Of a stretch of DNA of 39,704 nt, positions 5,524-39,500 are shown in pieces; position 1 is the first letter of the stretch, and the number at the start of each line of letters is the position of its first letter. The position numbers and the translations under genes were made by a program. Origin of the DNA: Natator depressus (Eukaryota); NCBI RefSeq assembly GCF_965152275.1, contig NW_027439781.1:1-39704 (forward strand). Reading direction: 5' to 3'. The notes under the pieces were generated by a model. It did not search any database and had not been told where the DNA came from. It was given only the letters and a program-made list of their open reading frames with translations.

Positions 5524-5648
5524 ATGGCCGTGATCTTCCTCTTCAGCTGTTGCTTCTTCCCCAACTTCTTCCTCGCCCTCCGCTGGGCACTGTACCACAC
5601 CCGGGCCTTGGGCATGGACCAGCTGCATGCCATCTATGTCGCTGCCAA
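5524..5648 (+). CDS. TLCD3B: TLCD3B (FAM57B) alternative 5' coding exon 1a. MAVIFLFSCCFFPNFFLALRWALYHTRALGMDQLHAIYVAA plus 2 bases.
   Basis: ATG follows ttccttctcccag. The exon ends GCTGCCAA|GTAAAG, phase 2. The FFPxFFLALRWAL motif matches the TLC-family N-terminus (FAM57A/B). It joins exon 3 in frame (AA+G gives K-LVSS). Confidence 0.6.
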
Positions 5649-6952: not shown

Positions 6953-7078
6953 AGATGTTTCACCCTTGGTGGCTGGGGGCATCGTCTTCCCAGGGCTCTT
7001 CCTGCTGGCCAAGAACAGCCTCAAGCGGCTGCCCTGGCTGCAGTGGGATGAGGCCGACGCTGTCATCATCTCAGCCAG
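6953..7078 (+). CDS. TLCD3B: TLCD3B exon 2 (alternative 5' exon, or a cassette exon). (K/R)DVSPLVAGGIVFPGLFLLAKNSLKRLPWLQWDEADAVIISA(R).
   Basis: Matches human FAM57B isoform 1 N-terminus MLTPMVAGGVVFPGLFLLSKNTLQRLPQLRWEEADAVIVSAR. Acceptor ccccatcag|, donor TCAGCCAG|GTACCC. 126 nt, phase 2 in and out. The nearest in-frame ATG is at 6828. Confidence 0.7.
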
Positions 7079-7089
7079 GTACCCCAGGA

Positions 7090-10000
7090 TGCAGCGAAGG
7101 AGTCAGGGACTGGAGGAGGGATGCAGGGATGGAGGGAAGCAGTCAGGGACTGGAGGAGGGATGCAGGGATGGAGGGAAGCAGTCAGGGACTGGAGGAGGG
7201 ATCCAGGGATGCAGGGAAGGAGTCAGGGATAGAAGAATGAAAAAGGGAAAGAGGCACTGGCATGGGAGGGATGAGTGAAAGGAGGCTGCAGAGGGATGGA
7301 GGGAAGGAGACACTGGCAGGGAAGGAGGCAGTGGAGGGATGCAGGAATGGAGGGAAGGAGGCAGTGGCAATGGCATTGGAGGGATGGAGAGAAGGAGGCA
7401 GTGGAGGGATGGAGGCAGTGGAAGCAGAGGGATGGAGGGAAGGAGGCAGTGGCAGCGGCAGCGGAGGGATGGAAGCAGTGGCGGGATGGAGGCAGTGGAA
7501 GTGGAAGGATGGAGGGATGGAAGCAGTGGCAGTGGAGGGATGGAGAGAAGGAGGCAGTGGAAGTGGAGGGAAGGAGGCAGTGGCAGTGGCGGGATGGAAG
7601 CAGTGGAGGGATGGACGAAAGGAGGGAGTGGAAGTGGAGAGATGGAAGCAGTGGAGGCAAGGAGGCAGTGGCAGTGGAGGGATGGAACCGGTGGAGGGAT
7701 GGAGGGAAGGAGGCATTGGCAGTGGAGGGATGGAAGCAGCAGAGGGAAGGGGGCACTGGCAGTGGAGGGATGGAGGGAAGGAGGCAGTGGCAGGGGAGGG
7801 ATGGAAGCGGTGGAGGGAAGGAGGCAGTGGAAGTGGAGGGAAGAAGGCAGTGGCAATGGAGGGATGGAGGCAGTGGCAGTGGAGAGATGGAAGCAGTGGA
7901 GGGAAGGAGGCAGTGCCAGCAGAGGGATGGAAGCAGTGGAAGTGGAAGGATGGAGAGAAGGAGGCGGTGGCAGTGGATGGAAGGAGGGAGTGGCAGTGGC
8001 AGTGGAGGGATGGACAGAAGGAGGCAGTGGCAGTGGAGGGAAGGAGGCAGTGGCAGTGGAGGGAAGGAGGCAGTGGCAGTGGAGGGAAGAAGGGAAGGAG
8101 GCAGTGGCAGTGGAGAGATGGAGGCAGTGGGAGCGGAGGGAAGGAGGCAGTGGCAGTGACAGCGGAGGGATGGAGGGAATGCGGCAGTGGCAGCGGAGGG
8201 ATGGAAGCCATGGAGGGATGGAGAGAAGGAGGCAGTGGCTGTGGATGGAAGGAGGCAGTGGCAGTGGACGGAAGGAGGAAAGGAGGCAGTGGAAGCAGTG
8301 GAGGGAAGGAGGCAGTGGGAGCGGAGGGATGGAGGCAGTGGCAGTGGCAGCGGAGGGATGGAAGCTGTGGAGGGAAGGAGGCAGTGGCAGTGCAGGGATG
8401 GAGGGAAGGAGGCAGTGGCAGTGGAGGGAAGGAGGCAGTGGCAGTGGAGGGAAGGAGGCAGTGGAAGCAGTGGAGGGAAGGAGGCAGTGGGAGTGGCAGC
8501 GGAGGGATGGAAGCTGTGGAGGGAAGGACGGAAGGAGGCAGTGGCAGTGGACGGAAGGAGGCAGTGGCAGTGGACGGAAGGAGAGAAGGAGGCAGTGGAA
8601 GCAGTGGACGGAAGGAGGCAGTGGAGGGAAGGAGGCAGTGGCAGTGCAGGGATGGAGGCAGTGGCAGCGGAGGGAAGGAGGCAGTGGCAGTGGAGGGAAG
8701 GAGGCAGTGGAAGCAGTGGAGGGAAGGAGGCAGTGGCAGTGGCAGCGGAGGGATGGAAGCTGTGGAGGGAAGGACAGAAGGAGGCAGTGGCAGTGGACGG
8801 AAGGAGGCAGTGGCAGTGGACGGAAGGAGAGAAGGAGGCAGTGGAAGCAGTGGACGGAAGGAGGCAGTGGAGGGAAGGAGGCAGTGGCAGTGCAGGGATG
8901 GAGGCAGTGGCAGCGGAGGGATGGAAACCATGGAGGGATGGAGAGAAGGAGGCAGTGGCAGTGGACGGAAGGAGGCAGTGGCAGTGGCAGTGGAGGGATG
9001 GAGGCAGTGGCAGTGGAGGGAAGGAGGCAGTGGCAGCGGAGGGATGGAAGCTGTGGAGGGATGGACAGAAGGAGGCAGTGGCAGTGGACAGAAGGAGGCA
9101 GTGGCAGTGGACGGAAGGAGGGAAGGAGGCAGTGGAAGCAGTGGAGGGAAGGAGGCAGTGGAAGCAGTGGAGGGAAGGAGGCAGTGGCTGTGGAGGGATG
9201 GAGGCAGTGGCAGTGGCTGTGGAGGGATGGAGGCAGTGGCTGTGGAGGGAAGGTGGCAGTGGAGGGATGGAGGCAGTGGCAGTGGAGGGATGGAGGCAGT
9301 GGCAGTGGAGGGATGGAGGCAGTGGAGGGAAGGAGGCAGTGGCAGCGCAGGGATGGAGGGAAGGAGGCAGTGGAAGCGGAGGGAAGGAGGCAGTGGAAGC
9401 GGAGGGAAGGAGGCAGTGGCAGCAGAGGGATGGAGGCAGCGGAGGGAAGGAGGCAGTGGCAGCGGAGGGATGGAGGGAAGGAGGCAGTGGCAGTGGAGGC
9501 ATGGAGGGAAGGAGGCAGTGGAGGCATGGAGGGAAGGAGGCAGTGGCAGTGGCGGGATGGAGGCAGTGGCAGTGGCGGGATGGAGGGAAGGAGGCAGTGG
9601 AAGCGGAGGGATGGAGGCAGTGGAGGGAAGGAGGCAGTGGCAGTGGAGGGAAGGAGGCAATGGAGGGTTGGAGGGAAGGAGGCATTGGCAGTGGAGGGTA
9701 GGAGGCAATGGAGGGTTGGAGGGAAGGAGGCAGTGACAGTGGAGGGTTGGAGGGAAGGAGGCAGTGGCAGTGGAGGGTTGGAGGGAAGGAGGCAGTGGCG
9801 GGATGGAGGGAAGGAGGCAGTGGCAGTGGCGGGATGGAGGGAAGGAGGCAGTGGCAGTGGAGGGATGGAGGGAAGGAGGCAGTGGAAGCGGAGGGAAGGA
9901 GGCAGTGGAAGCGGAGGGAAGGAGGCAGTGGAGGGATGGAGGGAAGGAGGCAGTGGCAGTGGAGGGAAGGAGGCAGTGGCAGTGGAGGGGACGAGGGAAG

Positions 10001-11200
10001 GAGGGAAGGTGGCAGTGGAGGGAAGGAGGGAAGGTGGCAGTGGAGGGAAGGAGGGAAGGTGGCAGTGGAGGGAAGGAGGCAGTGGCAGTGGAGGGAAGGA
10101 GGCAAGGAGGCAGTGGAGGGATGGAGGGAAGGAGGCAGTGGCAGTGGAGGGAAGGAGGGATGGAGGCAGTGGAGGGAAGGAGGGATGGAGGCAGTGGCAG
10201 TGGAGGGATGGAGGCAGTGGAAGCGGAGGGAAGGAGGCAGTGGCAGCAGAGAGATGGAGGCAGCGGAGGGATGGAGGCAGTGGAATCGGAGGGATGGAGG
10301 CAGTGGAATCGGAGGGATGGAGGCAGTGGAAGCGGAGGGATGGAGGGAAGGCAGTGGAAGCGGAGGGATGGAGGCAGTGGCAGTGGAGGGATGGAGGCAG
10401 TGGCAGTGGAGGGATGGAGGCAGTGGCAGTGGAGGGATGGAGGGAAGGAGGCAGTGGGAGCGGAGGGAAGGAGGCAGTGGGAGCGGAGGGGTGGAGGGAA
10501 GGAGGCAGTGAAAGTGGAGGGGAGGAGGCAGTGAAAGTGGAGGGGAGGAGGCAGTGGCAGTGGAGGGATGGAGGGGAGGAGGCAGTGAAAGTGGAGGGGA
10601 GGAGGCAGTGGCAGTGGAGGGATGGAGGGGAGGAGGCAGTGAAAGTGGAGGGGAGGAGGCAGTGAAAGTGGAGGGGAGGAGGCAGTGGCAGTGCAGGGAT
10701 GGAGGGAAGGAGGCAGTGGGAGCGGAGGGAAGGAGGCAGTGGGAGCGGAGGGATGGAGGCAGTGGCAGTGGAAGCGGAGGGATGGAGGCAGTGGAAGCGG
10801 AGGGAAGGAGGCAGTGGCAGTGGAGGGATGGAGGGAAGGAGGCAGTGGCAGTGGAGGGTTGGAGGGAAGGAGGCAGTGGCAGTGGAGGGATGGAGGGAAG
10901 GAGGCAGTAGGAGCGGAGGGAAGGAGGCAGTGAGAGCGGAGGGAAGGAGGCAGTGGCAGTGGAGGGTTGGAGGGAAGGAGGCAGTGGAAGTGGAGGGTTG
11001 GAGGGAAGGAGGCAGTGGGAGCGGAGGGAAGGAGGGAAGGAGGCAGTGGAGGGAAGGAGGCAGTGGCAGTGGAGGGTTGGAGGGAAGGAGGCAGTGGCAG
11101 TGGAGGGAAGGAGGCAGTGGCAGTGGAGGGATGGAGGGAAGAAGGCAGTAGAAGCGGAGGGAAGGACGCAGTGGGAGCGGAGGGCTGCAGCCATGCACTG
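7090..11200 (+). repeat. 4.1-kb purine/G-rich minisatellite in TLCD3B intron 2. Units of roughly 27-33 bp (ggagggaaggaggcagtggcagtggagggatgg) with sub-variants.
   Basis: Continuous GGA/GGC-rich periodic sequence. It is the source of the 1351-aa and 1454-aa artefact ORFs in the track. Confidence 0.9.
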
Positions 11201-11822
11201 GCTCATGGGGCGAAGGCTGACGGGGGTTCCTTCGTCAGGGCCACGCTTCAGGCAGGAAACAGTGGGGTGTCTGTGCCTGCTGCTGAGGCTGGGGGGTGGG
11301 ACCTGCCAGGCCGGGGAGCAGCCTGCCCTCGTGGGCCACGCACGTCCCCCAGCCGGGGAGGGGCCGGGGCGCGGGGCTGAGGGGGATGGCGGAGGAGGGC
11401 AGCGGCCAGCTGGGGGGGGGTGCTGGCTGCTCTGGACAGGGATGGCCAGGGTGAGAGACCGCAGAGGGGTGACCTGGGAGGCCCTGGGTTTGGATCCCCG
11501 TGGGAGAGGGGGCTCCTGAAGGCTGGATCCCTGTGGGGGGAGGGGCCCCAGGAGGCTGGGGATCCTGCCACCTCTGCTCCCAGCCACACATCAGAGGGGA
11601 TTTCAATGCAGTGACTGGGCCTGTCAGCCCCCCACCAGAGCCATGTGCACCCCCAACAGCCCTCACTAGTCCCCTCTGCACCCCACACATTCCAGAGCAG
11701 CAGTTATGGGCACAGATTAGTGATCATCCTGGAGCCTCGGGCTGGGCTAGTGGGGGGCTGCGGGTCAGGGTTGAGGGAAAAGAGGGGCTGGTCCCGTTAA
11801 CCCTGCGTCCCTCCCCTGCAGG

Positions 11823-11906
11823 CTGGTCTCCTCCATCCAAGCCGTCATGGCCTCCACAGCCGGATACATCGTTTTCAGCTCCTGCCAACACGTTATCGAT
11901 GACCAG
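11823..11906 (+). CDS. TLCD3B: TLCD3B exon 3. (K/R)LVSSIQAVMASTAGYIVFSSCQHVIDD(Q).
   Basis: Acceptor ctgcag|G, donor GACCA|GTGAGT. Matches human LVSSVQAIMASTAGYIVSTSCKHIIDDQ. Confidence 0.85.
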
Positions 11907-13029: not shown

Positions 13030-13500
13030 CCCTCCGCATCATTGGGCTAGTGCCTCTCACTCCCGACCCGCAGCCCCCTGCTAGCCCAGCCCTGCCCCCC
13101 CCAGCTGTGCCGGTGCCCCTCACTCCCGACCCGCAGTCCCCTGCTAGCCCAGCCCTCAGCCCCTCCAGCCCTGCCGGTGCCCCTCACTCCCGACCCACAG
13201 CCCCCTGCTAGCCCAGCCCTCAGCCCCTCCAGCCCTGCCGGTGCCCCTCATTCCCGACCCGCAGCCCCCTGCCAGCCCAGCCCTGCCCCCCCCTGCCCTG
13301 CCGGTGCCCCTCACTCCCGACCCGCAGCCCCCTGCTAGCCCAGCCCTGCCCCCCCCCAGCTGTGCCGGTGCCCCTCACTCCCGACCTGCAGCCCCCTGCT
13401 AGCCCAGCCCTGCCGGTGCCCCTCACTCCCGACCCACAGCCCCCTGCTAGCCCAGCCCTGCCCCCCAGCTCTGCTGGTGCCCCTCACTCCCGACCCACAG
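13030..13500. repeat. Dispersed minisatellite family, array A. Core ctgccggtgcccctcactcccgacccgcagccccctgc, unit about 60 bp, about 8 copies.
   Basis: Direct periodicity. The same core in reverse complement occurs at 13680-13920. Confidence 0.8.
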
Positions 13501-13679
13501 CCCCTGAATCCTTTGTCCCACTGCAGCATCCTGGGCTGCGGCTCTGGCATGGGGCCTAATCGGCTCACACTGGGCAGAGGCCTCTGTCAGCACAATTTGG
13601 CAGCGGGACTGCAGCATGGGGCGGCGGGGGGGGGGGTGCAGGTGGAGGGGCCGGGGGCCAAGCTTGGAAGGAGGGACAG

Positions 13680-13920
13680 GGCCTATGGCTGGGCTAGCAG
13701 GGGCTGCGGGTCGGGAGTGAGGGGCACCGGCAGAGCTGGGGGGGCAGGGCTGGGGTAGTAGGGGCTGCGGGTCGGGAGTGAGGGGCACCAGCAGAGCTGG
13801 GGGGCAGGGCTGGGCTGGCAGGGGCTGCGGGTCGGGAGTGAGGGGCACCAGCAGAGCTGGGGGGCAGGGCTGGGGTAGCAGGGGCTGCGGGTTGGGAGTG
13901 AGGGGCACCAGCAGAGCTGG
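13680..13920. repeat. Dispersed minisatellite family, array B (gggctgcgggtcgggagtgaggggcaccggcag...). It is inverted relative to array A and forms an imperfect palindrome with arms about 180 bp apart.
   Basis: Reverse complement of array A units. The + and - strand ORFs read the same [10 protein letters not shown] peptide. Confidence 0.8.
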
Positions 13921-14380
13921 GGGGTATCCTCGCTGTGGGTCATGGTTGTGGCTGCCCCATGGGCTGTGGGGGGTGGAGGCGCCTGGCTCGGCTCCGGGTG
14001 GAGGAGGCTGCGTTCCCTATGACCTTGCAGCAGCTGTTGCCCGTCAATACTCCATCGATCCTCCCAGTCCCTACCCACCAGGCCACACTGCCGCCACGCT
14101 CGCCAGCCTGCGCCCCATGGCCTGTCTCCCCCATCCCGGTGAGCAGGCCAGGGCAGGTTACCCCTGCCAGCCCCACCCTCTGCCTGAGGTGCTGCTGGAT
14201 CCCCCAGCCCAGCCCCCCACACAGCTCCCCCCAGGCCCTGGCACTGCAGAGCCCCTCCTCCTGGCAGCTTCCGCTGCCTTGTGTCCCACCCCTCTCCCCT
14301 AGCACCCCCAGCAGGGCCCCACTGCCCCCGCCAGCTTCCCCTGCCCCCGCGGCAGCTCTAACCCCTCTGTCTTCCCCCAG

Positions 14381-14600
14381 GCACTGGCTGACGAGCGCCT
14401 ACACGGAGTTTGCGGTGCCCTACTTCATCTACGACATCTACGCCATGTTCCTCTGCCACTGGCACAGGTACCGGGTGAAGGGGCACGAGGCTGCGGGGCC
14501 CCGCTCGCTGCGCACCGCCACCCGCGCCTTCCTGCGCAAGGAGTTCCTCATGGTGCTGCACCACCTCTGCATGGTGCTGGTGTGCTTCCCCGTCTCCGTG
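14381..14600 (+). CDS. TLCD3B: TLCD3B exon 4. (Q)HWLTSAYTEFAVPYFIYDIYAMFLCHWHRYRVKGHEAAGPRSLRTATRAFLRKEFLMVLHHLCMVLVCFPVSV.
   Basis: Strong match to human HWLSSAYTQFAVPYFIYDIYAMFLCHWHKHQVKGH...KEFLMVLHHAAMVLVCFPLSV. Acceptor cttcccccag|G, donor GTG|GTGAGTGGG. Confidence 0.9.
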
Positions 14601-15560
14601 GTGAGTGGGCCCCGATAGCCGCAGGGGGCTGCACCCCCTCTGCATGGTGCTGGTGTGCTTCCCCGTCTCCGTGGTGAGTGGCCCCCGATAGCCGCAGGGG
14701 GGCCCCCCGATAGCCGCAGGGGGCTGCACCCCCTCTGCATGGTGCTGGTGTGCTTCCCCGTCTCCGTGGTGAGTGGCCCCCGATAGCCGCAGGGGGCTGC
14801 ACCCCCTCTGCATGGTGCTGGTGTGCTTCCCCGTCTCCGTGGTGAGTGGCCCCCGATAGCCGCAGGGGGGCCCCCCGATAGCCGCAGGGGGCTGCACCCC
14901 CTCTGCATGGTGCTGGTGTGCTTCCCCGTCTCCGTGGTGAGTGGGCCCCGATAGCCGCAGGGGGCTGCACCCCCTCTGCATGGTGCTGGTGTGCTTCCCC
15001 GTCTCCGTGGTGAGTGGGCCCCGATAGCCGCAGGGGGGCCCCTGATAGCCGCAGGGGGCTGCACCCCCTCTGCATGGTGCTGGTGGGCTTCCCCCTCTCC
15101 GTGGTGAGTGGGGCCCGATAGCCGCAGGGGGGCCCCTGATAGCCGCAGGGGGCTGCACCCCCTCTGCATGGTGCTGGTGGGCTTCCCCCTCTCCGTGGTG
15201 AGTGGGCCCCGATAGCCGCAGGGGGGCCCCCCGATAGCCGCAGGGGGCTGCACCCCCTCTGCATGGTGCTGGTGTGCTTCCCCGTCTCCGTGGTGAGTGG
15301 GCCCCGATAGCCGCAGGGGGCTGCACCCCCTCTGCATGGTGCTGGTGTGCTTCCCCGTCTCCGTGGTGAGTGGGCCCCGATAGCCGCAGGGGGGCCCCTG
15401 ATAGCCGCAGGGGGCTGCACCCCCTCTGCATGGTGCTGGTGGGCTTCCCCCTCTCCGTGGTGAGTGGGGCCCGATAGCCGCAGGGGGGCCCCTGATAGCC
15501 GCAGGGGGCTGCACCCCCTCTGCATGGTGCTGGTGGGCTTCCCCCTCTCCATGGTGAGTG
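14601..15560 (+). repeat. About 11 tandem copies (73 bp, or 94 bp with an insert) of the 3' end of TLCD3B exon 4 plus its donor (ctctgcatggtgctggtgtgcttccccgtctccgtg|gtgagtgggccccgatagccgcagggggctgcaccc). They fill almost all of intron 4.
   Basis: Direct. Each copy keeps a GTGAGTGG donor and a ...ccgcag|g acceptor-like site. Confidence 0.9.
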
Positions 15561-15700
15561 GGGCCCGAGATCCCCAGGAGGCCGTAAGAAGGCAAGGGGT
15601 GGGACCGAGCCACAGGAGGGAAGTGGGGGTCCTGAGCCCATGAGGGGGCAGGAGGGGGCTAGTTCCCACCAGCTGCCCCTCACCCCCCCTCTCTCCCCAG

Positions 15701-15796
15701 CTGTGGCGCCAGGGGAAGGGCGATTTCTTCCTGGGCTGCATGCTGATGGCCGAGCTGAGCACCCCCTTCGTCTCCCTGGGCAAGGTGCTCATCCTG
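15701..15796 (+). CDS. TLCD3B: TLCD3B exon 5. [32 protein letters not shown].
   Basis: Matches human [32 protein letters not shown]. Acceptor ctctccccag|, donor CTG|GTGAGT. Confidence 0.9.
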
Positions 15797-15799
15797 GTG

Positions 15800-16070
15800 A
15801 GTACCCGCCGGGGGGAGGGGAGGGGAGGGCGGATGCCTGGGTTCTCTGCCCAGCTCGTGGTGGGAGGGGAGTGCCCGGACGCCTGGGTTCCGTTCCCAGC
15901 CGGAGGGGCGGGGGTGCCCGGACGCCTGGGTTCCGTTCCCAGCCGGAGGGGCGGGGGTGCCCGGACGCCTGGGTTCCGTTCCCGGGCGGGGGTGCCCGGA
16001 CGCCTGGGTTCCGTTCCCGGGCGGGGGGCGGGGGTGCCCGGACGCCTGGCTCCCTCACCCCTCTCTCTCC
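15800..16070. repeat. About 5 tandem copies of a 50-bp SINE-B-box-derived unit (ggtgcccggacgcctgggttccgttcccagccggaggggcggg) just upstream of the exon 6 acceptor.
   Basis: Direct periodicity. The unit resembles the ctgggttc B-box region of the MIR-like SINE. Confidence 0.7.
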
Positions 16071-16075
16071 CCCAG

Positions 16076-16384
16076 TACAAGCGGCAGCACACCCTGCTGC
16101 ACAAGGTGAACGGGCTGCTCATGCTGGTGACCTTCTTCTGCTGCCGCATCCTGCTCTTCCCCTACATGTACCGGGCCTACGGGCGCCACGCCGGGCTGCC
16201 CCTGCACCGCGTGCCCCTCGCCCTGCCGCCCGCCTACAACCTGGGCGCCGCCCTGCTCCTGGCCCCCCAGCTCTACTGGTTCGGCCTCATCTGCCGCGGG
16301 GCCGTCCGCCTCTTCCGCCGTGCCCCGCCCACGGACCCCGCCCTGCGCAACGGGCATGGCCCCGGGGGGCGGGCGCTGGACTGA
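16076..16384 (+). CDS. TLCD3B: TLCD3B last exon. [102 protein letters not shown] followed by a stop (TGA at 16382-16384).
   Basis: Matches human [80 protein letters not shown]. Acceptor ctctctcccccag|. Confidence 0.9.
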   Translation, partial: [102 protein letters not shown]

Positions 16385-16660
16385 GAACCCCCGGTGCCAG
16401 GGGCACGGCCTCTGGGGGCGGGCGCTGGACTGAGACCCCCCCAGTGCCACGGGCACCGCCCCCAGGCCGGGTGCTGGACTGAGACCCCCGCCCTGCGCCA
16501 CGGGCACGGCCCCGGGGGGCGGGCGCTGGACTGAGAACCCCCGGTGCCAGGGGCACGGCCTCTGGGGGCGGGTGCTGGACAGAGACCCCCCGGTGCCACG
16601 GGCACCGCCCCCGGGGGCGGGCGCTGAACAGAGACCCCCCCAGTGCCACGGGCACCACCC
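16330..16660 (+). repeat. About 6 tandem copies of a 60-bp unit (gccacgggcacggccccggggggcgggcgctggactgagaacccccggt). They include the last 14 codons and stop of TLCD3B and extend into the 3'UTR.
   Basis: Direct. The first copy is coding, and later copies retain ctggactgaga. Confidence 0.8.
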
Positions 16661-16842
16661 CAGCCTACCTGCTCTGTGCTAAGGGCATATCCTCGGGGGG
16701 GCTCGCTGGCCTGAGCCCCCCTGCCCGTGTGGTGCCATGGGCACAGCCCCAAGGCCCTGGCATGAGACCGTCCCCGCGTGGTGGGCACGGGGTGAACTGA
16801 CATCTGGGGCCAGCGCCCAGAGCCTCAGCTTCTAACGACTTT

Positions 16843-16860
16843 ATTTATTTATTTATTGGG
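16843..16860 (-). terminator. (TTTA)n run. On the - strand it reads AATAAATAAATAAA and is a candidate poly(A) signal for the - strand gene ending at 17726.
   Basis: gactttatttatttatttatt on the + strand. Inference only. Confidence 0.3.
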
Positions 16861-17725
16861 GGCCCTCCCTGGAATTCTCCGGGGGCTGCTGCAGGAGGGA
16901 GTGGGGCCCCCCTTGGACTGACAGGGGCTGACTGCAACCCCCATTCTCAGGGGTCTGCCCAGTAGCACCTGGGGCGGTCCCCCTGGGTGGTGCAGCTCAG
17001 ACACCCCCAGTAATGGGGGAATGAGGTGCAAATCGGGGGGTTGGCTGTGTTGGGAGGCGAGGGTTTAGCCTGGAGATTTGGGGGACCCCTGGGAATCTCA
17101 GGGGGCCACCCAGGGGATTGAATTCCTGCCCCACCAGAGTGTGGGGGGACCCAGCCAGACTCCACCAGCAGACAGTTTGGGTGGACTTGGGGACCCCCCA
17201 CACTGCCCCCCACTGTAGCAATAACCAGGCAGCGGGTGGGGAACTGACCCCCCCAACAAGGACTGTGAGCTCTGCACCCCCCAGCTGCTCGCTGGGTCAG
17301 GATGTATACGGGGGGGGGATTTCCAACCCTGGGGGCTGCAAAGTATTAAAGGAGCCTTGATCCAATGCCAGTGCCGCTGCCTCCGGGTGATTATTACCCC
17401 CCACCCCCCAGACTGCCCCCCAGCCAGTGCCTCAGGGTGATTATGAACCCCCAGCCCCCCAAAACTGCCCCCCAGCCAGCACCTGCAGGGGACTGTTACT
17501 GCCCCCCCCCCCGGGTGCCAGGCACTGGGGATGCCAAGACAATGCAGCTCTTTACTGGGGGGGGCAAAGCTGAACCCTGACATCCTGCAGCTCCTCAGCT
17601 CTGCGTCCTGCAGACCCTAAGAGAGAACAAGGGGGGGGTCACTGCCAGCCTCCCGGCAGCACTGGGGCGGGGGGGGTTGGAGAGGACCAGGCCAGGGAAT
17701 AGGACCCAGGCGTCCGGGGAGACAC

Positions 17726-17959: not shown

Positions 17960-18300
17960 CCCAGGGCTGGGCTAGCAGGGGCTGCAGGTCGGGAGTGAGG
18001 GGCACCGGCAGGGCTGGGGGCGCAGGGGCTGCGGGTCGGGAGTGAGGGGCACCGGCAGGGCTGGGGGCGCAGGGGCTGCGGGTCGGGAGTGAGGGGCACC
18101 GGCAGGGCTGGGGGGGCAGGGGCTGCGGGTCGGGAGTGAGGGGCACCGGCAGGGCTGGGGGCGCAGGGGCTGCGGGTCGGGAGTGAGGGGCACCGGCAGG
18201 GCTGGGGGGGCAGGGGCTGCGGGTCGGGAGTGAGGGGCACCGGCAGGGCTGGGGGCGCAGGGGCTGCGGGTCGGGAGTGAGGGGCACCGGCAGGGCTGGG
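17960..18300. repeat. Dispersed minisatellite family, array C (gggctgcgggtcgggagtgaggggcaccggcagggctgggggcgcag, 47 bp, about 7 copies), in the intron of gene X.
   Basis: Direct periodicity. Same core as 13680-13920. Confidence 0.85.
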
Positions 18301-22539: not shown

Positions 22540-22930
22540 TCGGGATCCCGGTGCCCCTCACTCCCGACCCGCAGCCCCCTGCCCCCCCCGCCGGTGCCCC
22601 TCACTCCCGACCCGCAGCCCCCTGCCCCCCCTGCCGGTGCCCCTCACTCCCCACCCGCAGCCCCCTGCCCCTCCTGCCGGTGCCCCTCACTCCCCACCCA
22701 CAGCCCCCTGCCCCCCCTGCCGGTGCCCCTCACTCCCCACCCACAGCCCCCTGCCCCCCCTGCCGGTGCCCCTCACTCCCCACCCACAGCCCCCTGCCCG
22801 CCCTGTGCCCCTCACTCCCCACCCGCAGCCCCCTGCCTCCCCCGCTCTGCCGGTGCCCCTCACTCCCCACCCGCAGCCCCCTGCCTCCCCCGCTCTGCCG
22901 GTGCCCCTCACTCCCGACCCGCAGCCCCCC
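22540..22930. repeat. Dispersed minisatellite family, array D (ccggtgcccctcactcccgacccgcagccccctgcccccc, unit about 45-50 bp, about 8 copies), in an MVP intron.
   Basis: Direct periodicity. Same core as the arrays at 13030-13920 and 17960-18300. Confidence 0.85.
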
Positions 22931-22956
22931 GCCAGCCCAGCCCTGGACTCCCCCAC

Positions 22957-26239: not shown

Positions 26240-26680
26240 CAGATCAGGAGTGAGGGGGACCGGCAGAGCTGGGGGGACAGGCCCAGGGCTGGGGGGGCTG
26301 CGGGTCGGGAGTGAGGGGCACCGGCGGAGCTGCGGGGGGGGGGGCAGGGCTGGGCTAGCAGGGGCTGTAGGTCGGGAGCGAGGGGCACCGGCAGAGCGGA
26401 CGGGGGGACGGGCCCAGGGCGGTGGGGCGGGAGCGAGGGGCGCCGGCAGACCGGATGGGGGGACGGGCCCAGGGTGGCGGGGCGGGAGCGAGGGGCGCCG
26501 GCAGAGCGGACGGGGGGACGGGCCCAGGGCGGGAGCGAGGGGCGCCGGCAGAGCGGACGGGGGGACGGGCCCAGGGCTGGGGGGCGGGAGCGAGGGGCGC
26601 TGGCAGAGCGGACGGGGGGACAGGCCCAGGGCTGGGGGGCGGGAGCGAGGGGCACCGGCAGAGCGGACGGGGGGCGGTAC
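26240..26680. repeat. Dispersed minisatellite family, array E. This is a diverged variant (cgggagcgaggggcgccggcagagcggacggggggacgggcccagggc, unit about 60 bp) whose first units are the canonical gggctgcgggtcgggagtgaggggcaccggc. It lies in an MVP intron.
   Basis: Direct periodicity. Confidence 0.8.
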
Positions 26681-36899: not shown

Positions 36900-39500
36900 C
36901 CGCGCCGTCCCCCTCACCCGCCGTGACCCCTCCCGTCACAGGAACCCCTCCTCCAGCGCGTGACCCTCCCCCGCCGGGACCCCTCCCCCACCGCGTGACC
37001 CCTCCCCCGCCGGGACCCCTCCCCTCACAGAGACCCCTCCCCCACCGCGTGACCCCTCCCCCACCGGGACCCCTCCCCTCACAGAGACCCCTCCCCCACC
37101 GCGTGACCCTCCCCCGCCAGGACCCCTCCCCTCCCCCACTGCGTGACCCCTCACCCGCCGTGACCCCTCCCGTCACAGGAACCCCTCCCCCACCGCGTGA
37201 CCCTCCCCCGCCGGGACCCCTCCCCCACCGCGTGACCCCTCCCCCGCCGGGACCCCTCCCCTCACAGAGACCCCTCCCCCACCGCGTGACCCCTCCCCCA
37301 CCGGGACCCCTCCCCTCACAGAGACCCCTCCCCCACCGCGTGACCCTCCCCCGCCAGGACCCCTCCCCTCCCCCACTGCGTGACCCCTCACCCGCCGTGA
37401 CCCCTCCCGTCACAGGAACCCCTCCCCCACCGCGTGACCCTCCCCTCACAGAGACCTCTCCCCGCCGGGACCCCTCCCCCACCGCATGACCCCTCCCCGC
37501 CAGGACCCCTCCCCTCACAGAGACCCCTCCCCCACCGCGTGACCCTCCCCCGCCAGGACCCCTCCCCTCACAGAGACCCCTCCCCCACCGCCTGACCCTC
37601 CCCCGCCGGGACCCCTCCCTTCACAGAGACCCCTCCTCCACCCCGTGACTCTCCCCCGCCGGGACCCCTCCCCTCCCCCACTGCGTGACCCCTCTGACCC
37701 CTCCCGTCACAGGAACCCCTCCCCCACCGTGTGACCCTCCCCCGCCGGGACCCCTCCCCTCCCCCACTGCGTGACCCCTCACCCGCCGTGACCCCTCCCG
37801 TCACAGGTACCCCTCCCCCACCGTGTGACCCTCCCCCACTGCGCGACCCCTCCCCTCACAGAAACCCCTCCCCCACCGTGTGACCCTCCCTGCCGGGACC
37901 CCTCCCCCACTGCGTGACCCCTCCCCCGCCGGGACCCCTTCCTCACAGAAACCCCTCCCCTGCCGCATGACCCTCCCCCCCCACTGCGCTACCCCTCCCC
38001 CGCCGGGACCCCTCCCCTCACAGAAACCCCTCCCCCACCGTGTGACCCCGCCGGGACCCCTTCCCTCACAGAAACCCCTCCCCCACCGGGACCCCTCCCT
38101 CACAGAAAACCCTTCCCCCTCCGCGTGACCCTCCCCTCACAGGTGATCCTCCCCTGCCGGGACCCCTCCCCTCACAGGGACCCCTCCCCCACCGCGTGAC
38201 CCTCCCCCACTGTGTGACTCTCCCCCGCCGGGACCTTTCCCCTCACAGAGACCCCTCCCCCGCCGGGACCTTTCCCCTCACAGAGACCCCTCCCCCGCCG
38301 GGGACCCTCCCCTCACAGAGACCCCTCCCCTCACAGAAACCCCTCCCCCACCGTGTGACCATCCCCCTGCCGGAACCCCTCCCCTCACTGGAACCCCTCC
38401 CCTCACTGGATTACCCTCCCCTCAGCGGGACCCCTCCCCTCACAGGGACCCCTCCCCCACCAAGTGACCATCCCCTCATAGAAACCCCTCCCTGACCGTG
38501 TAACCCTCTGCCGCCGGGACCCCTCCCCTCACAGGAACCCCTCCCCCACCGTGTGACCCTCCCCTCACAGGAACCCATTTCTCCCCTCGCTGGGACCCCT
38601 TCCCTCATAGAAACCTCTTGCCGACCATGTGATCCTCCCGTCGCCGGGACCCCTCCCCTCATAGAAACCTCTCGCCGACCATGTGATCCTCCCCCTCACA
38701 GGAACCCATTTCTCCCCTCGCCGGGACCACTCCCCTCACAGAAACCCCTCCCCCACTGTGTGACCCTCCCCTCACAGAGACCCCCTCCCCCACCATGTGA
38801 CCTTCTCACCTACTGTGACCCCTCCCATCACAGGGACCCTTCCCCCACCGTGTGACCCCCTCCCCCACCATGTGACCCTTCCCTCACAAGAACCCCTCCC
38901 CCACTGTGTGACCCTCCTCTTGCAGGAACCCCTCCCCCACTATGTGACCCTCCCATCACAGGGACCCCTCTCCTCACAGGAACCCTGCTCCCAGTGTGTG
39001 GTACTCGCCTTACAGGGACCCCTCCCCCATCATGTGACCCCTCCCCCACCACCCTCCTCTCACAGCCACCTCTCCCTCTCCGTGTGACCCTCCCCTTACA
39101 GGGACCCCTCTCCCAATCTGTGACCCCTCACTTTGCAGGGAACCCTTCCCCCATCATGTGACCCCTCCCTCACCATCCTCCCCTCACAGGGACCCCTCCC
39201 CCATCATGTTACCACATCGCCTCATAGGAACCCCTCCCCAACCAGCGCGTGACCCTCCCTTCAGAGGAACCCCTCCCAAACTGCGTGACCTCTCCCCCAC
39301 CACCTTCCCCTCTCAGAGACCCTTCCTCCTCCACCCTATGGCCCCACCCCTCACAGAGACTCTCCCCCACTGCACTCCTCCCCCACTCTGTGGCCCCTCC
39401 CCTCACAGAGAGACCCTCTCCTCGTGACCCCACTCTTCAGAGAGAACCCCTCCCCTACCCTTCTGCTCTTTCACCCCATGACCCCTTCCTAGCCCTGTGA
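36900..39500 (+). repeat. 2.6-kb CT-rich minisatellite (units of about 20-35 bp such as gacccctcccctcacagagacccctcccccaccgcgtgaccctcccccgccgg). Higher-order 237-bp periodicity is visible (36936-37154 repeats at 37173-37391).
   Basis: Direct. Identical 72-aa artefact ORFs at 36936..37154 and 37173..37391 confirm the higher-order repeat. Confidence 0.9.

What the first reader, a model, noticed from the sequence alone, without database searches (positions are those of the whole stretch)
14560..15700. TLCD3B intron 4 is built from about 12 tandem copies of the upstream exon's 3' end plus splice donor
The last 36 nt of exon 4 (ctctgcatggtgctggtgtgcttccccgtctccgtg, encoding LCMVLVCFPVSV), its GTGAGTGGG donor, and about 30 nt of intron are repeated about 11 more times as 73-bp or 94-bp units. 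They fill 14601-15560. The true exon 5 follows at 15701. Every copy keeps a consensus donor, and each also has a ccgatagccgcag|g acceptor-like site. So the intron holds a ladder of decoy splice sites and possible 49-nt pseudo-exons. Later copies drift (gtgcttccccgtc becomes gggcttccccctc), which fits local unequal crossing-over. An exon-donor unit amplified into an intron-filling satellite is unusual, and it sits inside a conserved lipid-metabolism gene.
Basis: seen in the sequence. Interest (0 to 1): 0.7.

Follow-up and report, generated by a model that had tools for sequence, protein, structure and literature searches.

The report
Exon-end plus splice-donor minisatellite, turtle TLCD3B
An intron of the turtle TLCD3B gene is filled by about a dozen tandem copies of the preceding exon's last 46 bases plus its splice donor; the array is real, old and variable in length, but it belongs to a known class of boundary-spanning minisatellites (human F7, CBS, ABCA7; amphioxus "mirages").

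Summary
Window 14555-15568 holds 12 head-to-tail copies (73, 94 or 95 bp). Each copy has the last 46 nt of a TLCD3B exon, a GTGAGTGG donor and one or two 21-22-nt spacer sub-repeats. The array fills 88% of the 1100-nt intron. Splicing 14600|15701 reproduces exactly the annotated Natator depressus (flatback sea turtle) protein.

It is not an assembly artefact. An array with the same exon breakpoint sits in the orthologous intron of Lepidochelys, Caretta, Gopherus, Mauremys and Pangshura. Two Caretta assemblies carry 7 and 13 copies. Pelodiscus (254-nt intron) and Alligator (89-nt intron) have no array.

The arrays show concerted evolution, higher-order duplications and a less homogenised terminal copy. 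In Lepidochelys an array variant has entered the exon copy (Val to Leu).

Best reading: a neutral or nearly neutral boundary-spanning VNTR in a subtelomeric, minisatellite-rich region, with only the first donor used. The decoy acceptors are weak, and any use of a decoy donor meets an in-frame TAG.

The class is already known (F7 IVS7, CBS, IFI6, LMNB2, PDGF, ABCA7, amphioxus mirages). This is a new member, notable for the 46 exonic nucleotides and its persistence across three turtle families. No RNA data could be examined.

The parts
14381..14600 (+). TLCD3B exon (4th in genomic order; 220 nt, phase 1), encoding ...HWLTSAY...LHHLCMVLVCFPVSV
   Evidence: tblastn of orthologs. The junction PVSV|[8 protein letters not shown] is conserved across amniotes. 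The spliced model equals Natator depressus isoform X1 exactly.
14601..14608 (+). Authentic 5' splice site, GTG|GTGAGTGG. It is the first of 12 near-identical donors.
   Evidence: Consensus value about 88 with an approximate Shapiro-Senapathy matrix.
14555..15568 (+). The whole minisatellite: 12 units, each made of 46 nt of exon 3' end, the donor, and one or two 21-22-nt spacer sub-repeats. The first unit spans the exon-intron boundary.
   Evidence: TRF; unit dissection.
14555..14627 (+). Unit 1 (73 bp). It is the functional exon end (CACCAC) plus the first 27 nt of the intron.
14628..14890 (+). Units 2-4 (95, 73 and 95 bp). Cores are identical to the exon except A>C at the 9th nt. Units 2 and 4 are identical. 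Decoy donors at 14674, 14769 and 14842.
14891..15246 (+). Units 5-8 (73, 94, 94 and 95 bp), the first 356-bp higher-order block. Units 7 and 8 carry the GGGCTTCCCCCTC variant. Decoy donors at 14937, 15010, 15104 and 15198.
   Evidence: period 356, 98%.
15247..15568 (+). Units 9-12, the second higher-order block. Units 9-11 are identical to units 5-7. Unit 12 is the terminal copy (CCATG|GTGAGTGG) and runs into unique intron. Decoy donors at 15293, 15366, 15460 and 15554.
   Evidence: The terminal copy is shared with Caretta and Lepidochelys.
15569..15700 (+). Unique intron tail with the polypyrimidine tract and the real acceptor (CCCCTCACCCCCCCTCTCTCCCCAG|). It is homologous to the intron tail of the other turtles.
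   Evidence: Pyrimidine fraction 0.94. Tail identity is 94-97% to other sea turtles and about 82% (with gaps) to Gopherus and Mauremys.
15701..15796 (+). Next TLCD3B exon (96 nt), [32 protein letters not shown]

Best explanation
This is a boundary-spanning minisatellite (VNTR) of the 'mirage' / F7-IVS7 type inside the TLCD3B gene of a sea turtle, most probably Natator depressus.

Origin (inferred). A segment of about 73-77 nt, made of the last 46 nt of the exon, the 5' splice site and about 27 nt of intron, was duplicated in tandem in an ancestor of hard-shelled cryptodiran turtles. The likely trigger was misalignment between the exonic CTGCACCACCT and a near-identical intronic CTGCACCCCCT about 77 nt downstream. 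Pelodiscus still shows this arrangement.

Maintenance (shown by comparison). The array then expanded and has been turned over ever since by unequal crossing-over and gene conversion, in a GC-rich, subtelomeric region that is dense with minisatellites. The evidence is variable copy number (7-13), higher-order blocks, concerted evolution, a poorly homogenised terminal copy, and occasional exchange with the exon copy.

Splicing (inferred from annotated proteins and from the F7 precedent; no RNA was examined). Only the most upstream donor (14601) is joined to the strong acceptor at 15700. The 11 downstream donors are silent pseudo-sites. Any use of them would place an in-frame TAG five codons after the exon end, and the resulting transcript should be removed by nonsense-mediated decay.

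No function needs to be invoked. The array is a tolerated by-product of local repeat instability. One side-effect is that array variants can overwrite the last codons of the exon.
For: - Structure: 12 copies, with the first spanning the junction.
- Splicing model: joining 14600|15701 gives exactly the annotated Natator protein. All annotated turtle isoforms keep the junction ...FP(V/I/L)SV|(L/V)WRQGKGD, apart from one Pelodiscus isoform (P0148) that skips the next exon, and none contains repeat-derived sequence.
- Distribution: the same array with the same breakpoint (...CAGGG(G)|GCTGCACC, -46) is found in Lepidochelys kempii (12-13 copies), two Caretta assemblies (7 and 13), Gopherus evgoodei (9), Mauremys reevesii (10) and Pangshura tecta (12). 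It is absent from Pelodiscus (254-nt intron) and Alligator (89-nt intron).
- Length polymorphism: the flanks of the two Caretta loci are 99.4-100% identical, so 7 versus 13 copies is variation within one species.
- Concerted evolution: within-array core identity is 95-98%, against 85-95% between lineages.
- No constraint on the decoy donors: GT>GC donors occur in 6 of 12, 3 of 6 and 4 of 12 intronic copies in L. kempii and the two Caretta arrays.
- Exchange with the exon: the Lepidochelys exon copy carries the array's CCCCCTC and GTGAGCAG, and its protein reads CFPLSV.
- Seeding microhomology: Pelodiscus has CTGCACCCCCT at intron +33, 77 nt from the exonic CTGCACCACCT. Only 0.06% of shuffles place such a match at +20..+45.
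- Repeat-prone setting: 32% of the window and 67% of the gene span lie in minisatellites. The locus lies 0.6-1.1 Mb from a chromosome end in five chromosome-scale assemblies.
- Weak decoy acceptors (pyrimidine fraction about 0.5) and an in-frame TAG after the exon end.
- Precedent: in F7 IVS7 only the most upstream of several identical donors is used, even against pseudo-sites with a consensus value of 91 (PMC1557585).
Against: - No transcript data were available, so exclusive use of the first donor rests on annotation and analogy.
- In IFI6, CBS and ABCA7 the second or third pseudo-site is used to some extent (PMC1557585; PMC5954066), so some leakage here is plausible.
- The exon-derived part of the intronic copies is better conserved between sea turtles and testudinoids (90-95% for the window; 85-95% over all such comparisons; ungapped) than the unique intron tail (about 82% with many gaps). 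Four of the seven arrays keep every donor intact. Re-templating from the selected exon copy explains this, but selection on the copies is not excluded.
- The copy number in the window's own assembly could not be checked against reads.
Confidence: 0.8

Rival explanations
1. The array is a selected cis-regulatory element. A ladder of strong decoy 5' splice sites, together with G-runs, would bind U1 snRNP and hnRNP H/F. This would tune TLCD3B output through intron retention, unproductive splicing with NMD, or enhancement of the first donor. That role would explain its persistence across turtle families.
For: - The array is present in three families (Cheloniidae, Testudinidae, Geoemydidae) that span the base of Durocryptodira (topology from bioRxiv 10.1101/2021.10.14.464421).
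- All decoy donors are intact in the window, Gopherus, Mauremys and Pangshura, with a consensus value of about 83-90.
- The exon-derived core of the intronic copies is more conserved than the unique intron tail.
- ABCA7 VNTR length does affect splicing of the neighbouring exons (PMC5954066).
Against: - A third to half of the intronic donors (4 of 12, 3 of 6 and 6 of 12) are dead (GC) in Caretta and Lepidochelys.
- Copy number differs almost two-fold within Caretta.
- Pelodiscus and Alligator have an intact gene without any array.
- The gene carries many other minisatellites, including a second one that duplicates its stop-codon end.
- In F7, deleting or adding monomers did not change splicing.
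- Concerted evolution with a selected exon copy explains the conservation.
Confidence: 0.12
2. The array, or at least its copy number, is an artefact of assembling a repetitive GC-rich region (expansion or collapse).
For: - The region is 70% GC and highly repetitive.
- Units 5-7 and 9-11 are identical over 261 nt. This is the kind of structure that assemblers can duplicate or collapse.
- No reads could be inspected.
Against: - Seven independent assemblies from six species show the array in the same intron with the same breakpoint but with species-specific unit variants. Its existence is therefore real.
- Only the exact number, 12, remains unverified.
Confidence: 0.03
3. The copies are coding. 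They could be tandemly duplicated alternative or mutually exclusive exon ends, or a repeat-encoded protein insertion.
For: - tblastn finds LH(P/H)LCMVLVCFPVSV repeatedly.
- A pair of units, 73+95 = 168 nt, preserves the reading frame.
Against: - Read-through from the exon meets TAG after five codons (VSGPR*), and every unit has stops in all three frames.
- Only the 3' 46 nt of the exon is copied, and no credible acceptor or polypyrimidine tract comes with it.
- No annotated turtle isoform contains a repeat.
Confidence: 0.02

Closest known systems
Human F7 intron 7 37-bp VNTR (Borensztajn et al. 2006, PMC1557585)
   Same: - The first monomer spans the exon-intron boundary, so the authentic donor is followed by identical pseudo-donors.
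- It is polymorphic in copy number (5-9).
- Only the most upstream donor is used physiologically.
- The monomers are G-rich.
   Different: - F7 copies only 4 exonic nt, against 46 here. The turtle decoys therefore share the full proximal exonic context.
- The unit is 37 bp, against 73-131 bp here.
- The F7 donor is weak (consensus value 74), against about 88 here.
- The turtle array contains nested 21-22-nt sub-repeats and is shared by three families.
- Splicing behaviour has not been measured in turtles.
Human LMNB2 (100-bp x 10-15) and PDGF intron 4 (81-bp x 16-18) boundary-spanning minisatellites; also CBS IVS13 and IFI6 (6-16) intron 2, as summarised in PMC1557585
   Same: - Unit size (LMNB2, PDGF) and copy number are similar.
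- The donor is reiterated in the intron.
- In LMNB2 and PDGF only the authentic donor is used.
   Different: - In CBS and IFI6 the first two pseudo-sites are also used.
- I know of these examples only from the introduction of that paper and did not compare them sequence by sequence.
Human ABCA7 intron 18 25-bp VNTR (De Roeck et al. 2018, PMC5954066)
   Same: - The VNTR starts at the exon's GT donor, and each unit begins with a donor-like GT.
- It is highly length-polymorphic.
- A one-unit retention isoform and length-dependent splicing changes have been observed.
   Different: - The ABCA7 unit contains no exonic sequence.
- Its alleles reach more than 10 kb.
- It has a demonstrated phenotypic effect in humans. 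None is known here.
Amphioxus 'mirages': minisatellite-like tandem duplications of exon-intron boundaries in Adh3 and globin genes (PMC3087553)
   Same: - Substantial pieces of exon plus the splice signal are repeated in tandem.
- They differ in length between haplotypes.
- They show concerted evolution, with the boundary units excluded from homogenisation.
- Regular splicing is not disturbed.
   Different: - The lineage (cephalochordates).
- Either boundary can be involved (3' or 5').
- No deep cross-family persistence is reported in the passages I read. The turtle array is shared by lineages that split at the base of Durocryptodira.

Membership tests
Boundary-spanning minisatellite (F7 IVS7 / 'mirage' type VNTR) | A tandem array whose first monomer spans the exon-intron junction | tested here: met
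   Unit 1 is 14555-14627: 46 nt of exon plus 27 nt of intron. Eleven further units follow head to tail.
Boundary-spanning minisatellite (F7 IVS7 / 'mirage' type VNTR) | The authentic 5' splice-site sequence is reiterated in the downstream monomers | tested here: met
   GTG|GTGAGTGG is found in 11 copies and ATG|GTGAGTGG in the last.
Boundary-spanning minisatellite (F7 IVS7 / 'mirage' type VNTR) | Copy number varies between alleles or individuals | tested here: met
   Two Caretta assemblies have 7 and 13 copies, with flanks 99.4-100% identical. Across species the range is 7 to 13 copies. This was not testable for the window's own species.
Boundary-spanning minisatellite (F7 IVS7 / 'mirage' type VNTR) | Concerted evolution of the units, with less homogenised edge units | tested here: met
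   Identity is 95-98% within arrays and 85-95% between lineages. The terminal copy is the same in the window, Caretta and Lepidochelys.
Boundary-spanning minisatellite (F7 IVS7 / 'mirage' type VNTR) | Only (or mainly) the most upstream donor is used in mRNA | tested here: inconclusive
   The evidence is indirect. The donor-1 model reproduces the annotated Natator protein exactly, and no annotated turtle isoform carries repeat sequence. No RNA reads were available.
TLCD3B / FAM57B (TLC-domain ceramide synthase) gene | A TLC domain and orthology to vertebrate TLCD3B | tested here: met
   Pfam PF03798, E 2e-13. Turtle TLCD3B representatives are 82-92% identical. The spliced model is 100% identical to Natator depressus XP_074797733.1.
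Tandem exon duplication / mutually exclusive exons | Whole exons are duplicated, each with its own acceptor and an open reading frame | tested here: not met
   Only the 3' 46 nt is copied. The acceptor-like sites have a pyrimidine fraction of about 0.5. Stops occur in all frames.
Intron gain by tandem duplication (Rogers-type model; compare PMC2891723) | The intron is absent at this position in outgroups | tested here: not met
   The intron is present at the same codon boundary in Pelodiscus (254 nt) and Alligator (89 nt), and the junction is conserved across amniotes.
Decoy exons or decoy splice sites that promote intron retention | Copy-dependent intron retention or unproductive spliceosome assembly | not testable with these tools
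   This needs RNA-seq or minigene data. The concept is recalled from the literature and was not tested here.

The most novel reading that the evidence does not exclude
The array is not just tolerated. It has been kept for roughly 100 million years or more in hard-shelled turtles as a functional ladder of decoy donors that sets TLCD3B mRNA output through U1 sequestration, intron retention or NMD. It also acts as a conversion reservoir that repeatedly rewrites the last codons of the exon, as seen in the Lepidochelys Val-to-Leu change.
Probability: 0.08. Interest if true: 0.6.

Novelty: new member of a known kind. Interest (0 to 1): 0.3.

Why it matters
- **A natural test of 5' splice-site choice.** The window offers eleven decoys that match the real site over at least 54 nt (46 of them exonic), apart from one A>C change 38 nt upstream of the donor and two to three changes in the variant copies, and that are stronger (consensus value about 88) than the F7 pseudo-sites. 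Other turtle species provide replicates with 7-13 copies, units of 73-131 nt, and natural GT>GC knock-outs. Only position can tell the spliceosome which site is real, so the locus could test the 'most upstream site wins' rule outside mammals.
- **Intronic repeats can feed back on coding sequence.** In Lepidochelys the exon's last codons and its donor carry the array's variants.
- **A practical hazard.** Spliced aligners and gene predictors can place the exon end on any of 12 near-identical sites, and assemblers can miscount units.
- **Limits.** It does not reveal a new kind of element. There is no evidence that it affects TLCD3B function.

Tried and rejected
- **Assembly artefact as an explanation for the array's existence.** Rejected, because the array is present in six other assemblies.
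- **Coding or alternative-exon reading.** Rejected because of stops in all frames and the lack of credible acceptors.
- **Intron gain by duplication.** Rejected, because the intron pre-exists in Pelodiscus and Alligator.
- **Origin from a dispersed repeat or transposon.** The unit has no other copy in the window on either strand and is derived from the exon itself.
- **Known structured RNA.** An Rfam scan of 13500-17000 gave only a chance-level mir-1224 hit (26 bits against a gathering score of 105).
- **Failed look-ups.** Pelodiscus X4, Natator X1, Emydura X2, Alligator X3 and Malaclemys X1 were 'not on record'. As a result, Pleurodira and Emydidae could not be sampled, and the window's own public record could not be fetched. 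A second cluster listing did not reveal the longer Emydura isoform.
- **The first literature query** failed on syntax.
- **Searches not run.** I ran no further search on hunting for repeat-derived peptides, because a negative result would be uninformative.
- **MaxEntScan was not available.** Donor strength was scored with an approximate Shapiro-Senapathy matrix written from memory. It returns 76 for the F7 site, against the published 74.
Full report
**What is in the sequence.** Window 14555-15568 is a head-to-tail array of 12 units.

- Each unit begins with GCTGCACC(A/C)CCTCTGCATGGTGCTGGTGTGCTTCCCCGTCTCCGTG. These are the last 46 nt of the exon that ends at 14600.
- The unit continues with GTGAGTGG and ends with one or two 21-22-nt sub-repeats (GGGCCCCGATAGCCGCAGGGG).
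- This gives units of 73 bp (x4), 94 bp (x4) and 95 bp (x3), plus a terminal copy that runs into unique intron.
- The 44-nt core is exact in eight copies, has 2 mismatches in three and 3 in one. It occurs nowhere else in the window on either strand.
- TRF scores reach 1546.
- Units 5-7 and 9-11 are identical, so a 356-bp four-unit block was duplicated recently.
- The array occupies 968 of the 1100 intronic nucleotides (88%).

The exon-derived part is 46 nt, however, not 36. The "drifted" variant GGGCTTCCCCCTC follows the higher-order block structure rather than a gradient.

**The gene.**

- The exon and its neighbour encode a TLC domain (Pfam PF03798, E 2e-13).
- The closest proteins are turtle TLCD3B/FAM57B ("ceramide synthase").
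- Ortholog tblastn places the exons at 5524-5648 (alternative first exon), 6955-7078, 11822-11905, 14381-14600, 15701-15796 and 16076-16384.
- The junction ...[14 protein letters not shown]... is conserved from fish to mammals.
- Joining 5524-5648, 11822-11905, 14381-14600, 15701-15796 and 16076-16384 gives a 277-aa protein. It is identical at every residue to Natator depressus isoform X1. The Chelonia, Lepidochelys olivacea and Caretta isoforms of the same length differ at 3 or more residues.
- The window is therefore most probably flatback sea turtle, and the public annotation uses the first donor.

**Not an artefact, and not private to this genome.** I fetched the orthologous locus from other assemblies and dissected each intron.

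| Assembly | Copies | Intron length (nt) |
|---|---|---|
| Window (Natator depressus, probable) | 12 | 1100 |
| Lepidochelys kempii | 12-13 | 1212 |
| Caretta, assembly 1 | 7 | 708 |
| Caretta, assembly 2 | 13 | 1252 |
| Gopherus evgoodei | 9 | about 794 |
| Mauremys reevesii | 10 | 1084 |
| Pangshura tecta | 12 | 1351 |
| Pelodiscus sinensis | none | 254 |
| Alligator mississippiensis | none | 89 |

- In all of these arrays the exon-derived segment starts at the same nucleotide (-46), after ...CAGGG(G). The spacer is built from the same family of sub-repeats.
- A single origin is therefore the parsimonious reading. It would lie at or before the common ancestor of sea turtles and testudinoids, which is the base of Durocryptodira (topology from bioRxiv 10.1101/2021.10.14.464421). 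From my own knowledge of published timetrees this is of the order of 100 million years or more. I did not test the date.
- Pleurodira could not be sampled. An older origin followed by loss in softshells is therefore not excluded.

**Repeat dynamics.**

- The two Caretta loci are 99.4% and 100% identical in unique flanks, while Caretta against Lepidochelys is about 94-97%. The 7 versus 13 copies are therefore length variation within one species.
- The first four units are shared between the two alleles. The longer allele has a run of five near-identical units.
- The mean identity of the 54-nt core among intronic copies is 95-98% within an array and 85-95% between lineages. This is concerted evolution.
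- The terminal copy (GGGCTTCCCCCTC...GTGAGTGG, then GGGGCCCGAGATCCCCAGG) is the same in the window, both Caretta alleles and Lepidochelys. Edge units are expected to escape homogenisation in this way, as also described for amphioxus mirages (PMC3087553).

**Exchange with the exon.**

- In sea turtles all intronic copies read CACCCC where the exon reads CACCAC (His-His, invariant in the alignment). The one exception is Lepidochelys copy 2, which has the exon state.
- In the other direction, the Lepidochelys exon copy carries the array's CCCCCTC and the array's donor GTGAGCAG. The annotated proteins of both Lepidochelys species read CFPLSV instead of CFPVSV.
- Sequence therefore flows both ways between the exon end and the intronic copies. 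Purifying selection appears to filter what stays in the exon. This last step is inference.

**How it probably started.** This is an inference, but a specific one.

- Pelodiscus lacks the array. Its intron contains CTGCACCCCCT at +33, which lies 77 nt downstream of the exonic CTGCACCACCT (10 of 11 bases match).
- Only 0.8% of shuffled introns contain such a match anywhere, and 0.06% contain one at +20..+45.
- The spacing equals the basic unit length (73-77 nt), and the intronic version has the CACCCC state seen in sea-turtle copies.
- A slipped or unequal alignment between these two short repeats would create exactly the observed first duplication.

**Why here.**

- The region is about 70% GC.
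- 32% of the window and 67% of the TLCD3B span lie in minisatellites of period 10 or more.
- In five chromosome-scale assemblies the gene lies 0.6-1.1 Mb from a chromosome end.
- A second minisatellite in the same gene duplicates its last ten codons together with the stop codon.
- Local repeat formation therefore looks indiscriminate with respect to gene features.

**Consequences for splicing (inferred).**

- All 12 donors in the window are strong, with a consensus value of about 88-90 on an approximate Shapiro-Senapathy scale. On the same scale the F7 site scores 76, against a published 74.
- The 18 CCGCAG|G sites are poor acceptors. Their pyrimidine fraction at -20..-4 is about 0.5, against 0.94 at the real site. 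The nearest site lies only 24 nt from the preceding donor. The 49-nt pseudo-exons are therefore unlikely.
- Use of decoy donor k with the real acceptor would add 73, 168, 241 ... 953 nt. In every case an in-frame TAG follows five codons after the exon end (VSGPR*). Such transcripts should be NMD substrates.
- In Caretta and Lepidochelys a third to half of the intronic copies have GT>GC donors. This argues against selection to keep the decoys.
- The experimentally studied precedent is F7 IVS7. There, identical pseudo-sites are functional but silent, because the most upstream site is chosen, and adding or deleting monomers does not change the outcome (PMC1557585).
- In CBS, IFI6 and ABCA7 the next one or two pseudo-sites leak. 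Low-level use of 14674 or 14769 would therefore not be surprising.

**Comparison with what is known, and verdict.**

- Minisatellites whose first monomer spans an exon-intron boundary are documented in human F7, IFI6, CBS, LMNB2 and PDGF (PMC1557585), in ABCA7 (PMC5954066), and as "mirages" in amphioxus Adh3 and globin genes (PMC3087553).
- The turtle TLCD3B array meets the structural criteria of this class. The splicing criterion is supported only indirectly.
- It is a new member of a known kind. Three things distinguish it: the long exonic share of the unit (46 nt), its sharing by three turtle families, and a visible array-to-exon transfer.
- I found no evidence of function. A regulatory role remains a minority possibility (about 0.1).

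**Limitations.**

- No RNA data and no raw reads were available.
- Pleurodira, Emydidae, Chelydridae, Kinosternidae and Dermochelys were not sampled.
- The species label of the second Caretta assembly is inferred from an identical protein and near-identical flanks.
- Donor scores use a matrix recalled from memory.

Noticed in passing
window 16334-16655 (stop codon TGA at 16382-16384): A second boundary-spanning minisatellite in the same gene. The 49-bp (150-bp higher-order) repeat contains the last ten codons of TLCD3B plus the stop codon (GHGPGGRALD*). Further copies lie at 16401, 16502, 16551 and 16600. A duplicated C-terminal end is also seen in Pangshura (L002 10218-10268).
   Followed up: partly
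window 6955-6968: The start of the alternative first coding exon reads ATGTTTCACCCTTGG. Caretta and Lepidochelys have ATGTTTCACCCCTTGG, and other turtles have CACGCCTTGG. One C is missing from the run, which shifts the frame of the MFH(P/A)LVAGG isoform at codon 4. No such isoform is listed for Natator (only X1 and X2, which start elsewhere). This is either a real isoform loss or a homopolymer error in the assembly.
   Followed up: partly
window 7321-11184: A 3.9-kb G-rich minisatellite (periods 23, 31, 40, 54 and 63; GGCAGTGGAGGGATGGAGGCAGT) fills most of the intron between the exons at 6955-7078 and 11822-11905. GC skew there reaches +0.7. Gene length differs by 2.6 kb between the two Caretta assemblies, and only 0.54 kb of that comes from the exon-donor array. 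This array is therefore probably length-polymorphic too.
   Followed up: no
window 13050-13504 and 22548-22933 (+ orientation); 13687-13924, 17962-18300 and 26240-26674 (reverse complement): One repeat family (GTGCCCCTCACTCCCGACCCGCAGCCCCCTGC, units of 43-64 bp) forms at least five separate arrays in both orientations. Two of them form an inverted pair only about 180 bp apart in the intron just upstream of the exon at 14381. It is probably a dispersed turtle minisatellite or transposon-derived repeat.
   Followed up: partly
L004 (Lepidochelys kempii) 11356-11448; proteins P0213 and P0219: The Lepidochelys exon copy has taken over the array variant CCCCCTC and the array donor GTGAGCAG. This gives CFPLSV instead of CFPVSV in both Lepidochelys species. 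The first codon of the next exon also differs (VWRQ against LWRQ).
   Followed up: yes
window 15830-16049: The next intron, just downstream of the donor at 15797, contains 43/35-bp repeats with the motif CGGACGCCTGGGTTCCGTTCCC. The Ensembl models of Chelonoidis (P0005) and Pelusios (P0001) appear to read through into this intron.
   Followed up: no
window 36910-39046: A further block of more than 2 kb of tandem repeats lies near the end of the window, in a strongly C-skewed stretch of about 74% GC. It was not examined.
   Followed up: no
L002 (Pangshura tecta) 9433-9530: The last decoy donor lies only 52 nt upstream of the real acceptor, so the unique intron tail has been almost entirely replaced by the array in this species.
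   Followed up: no
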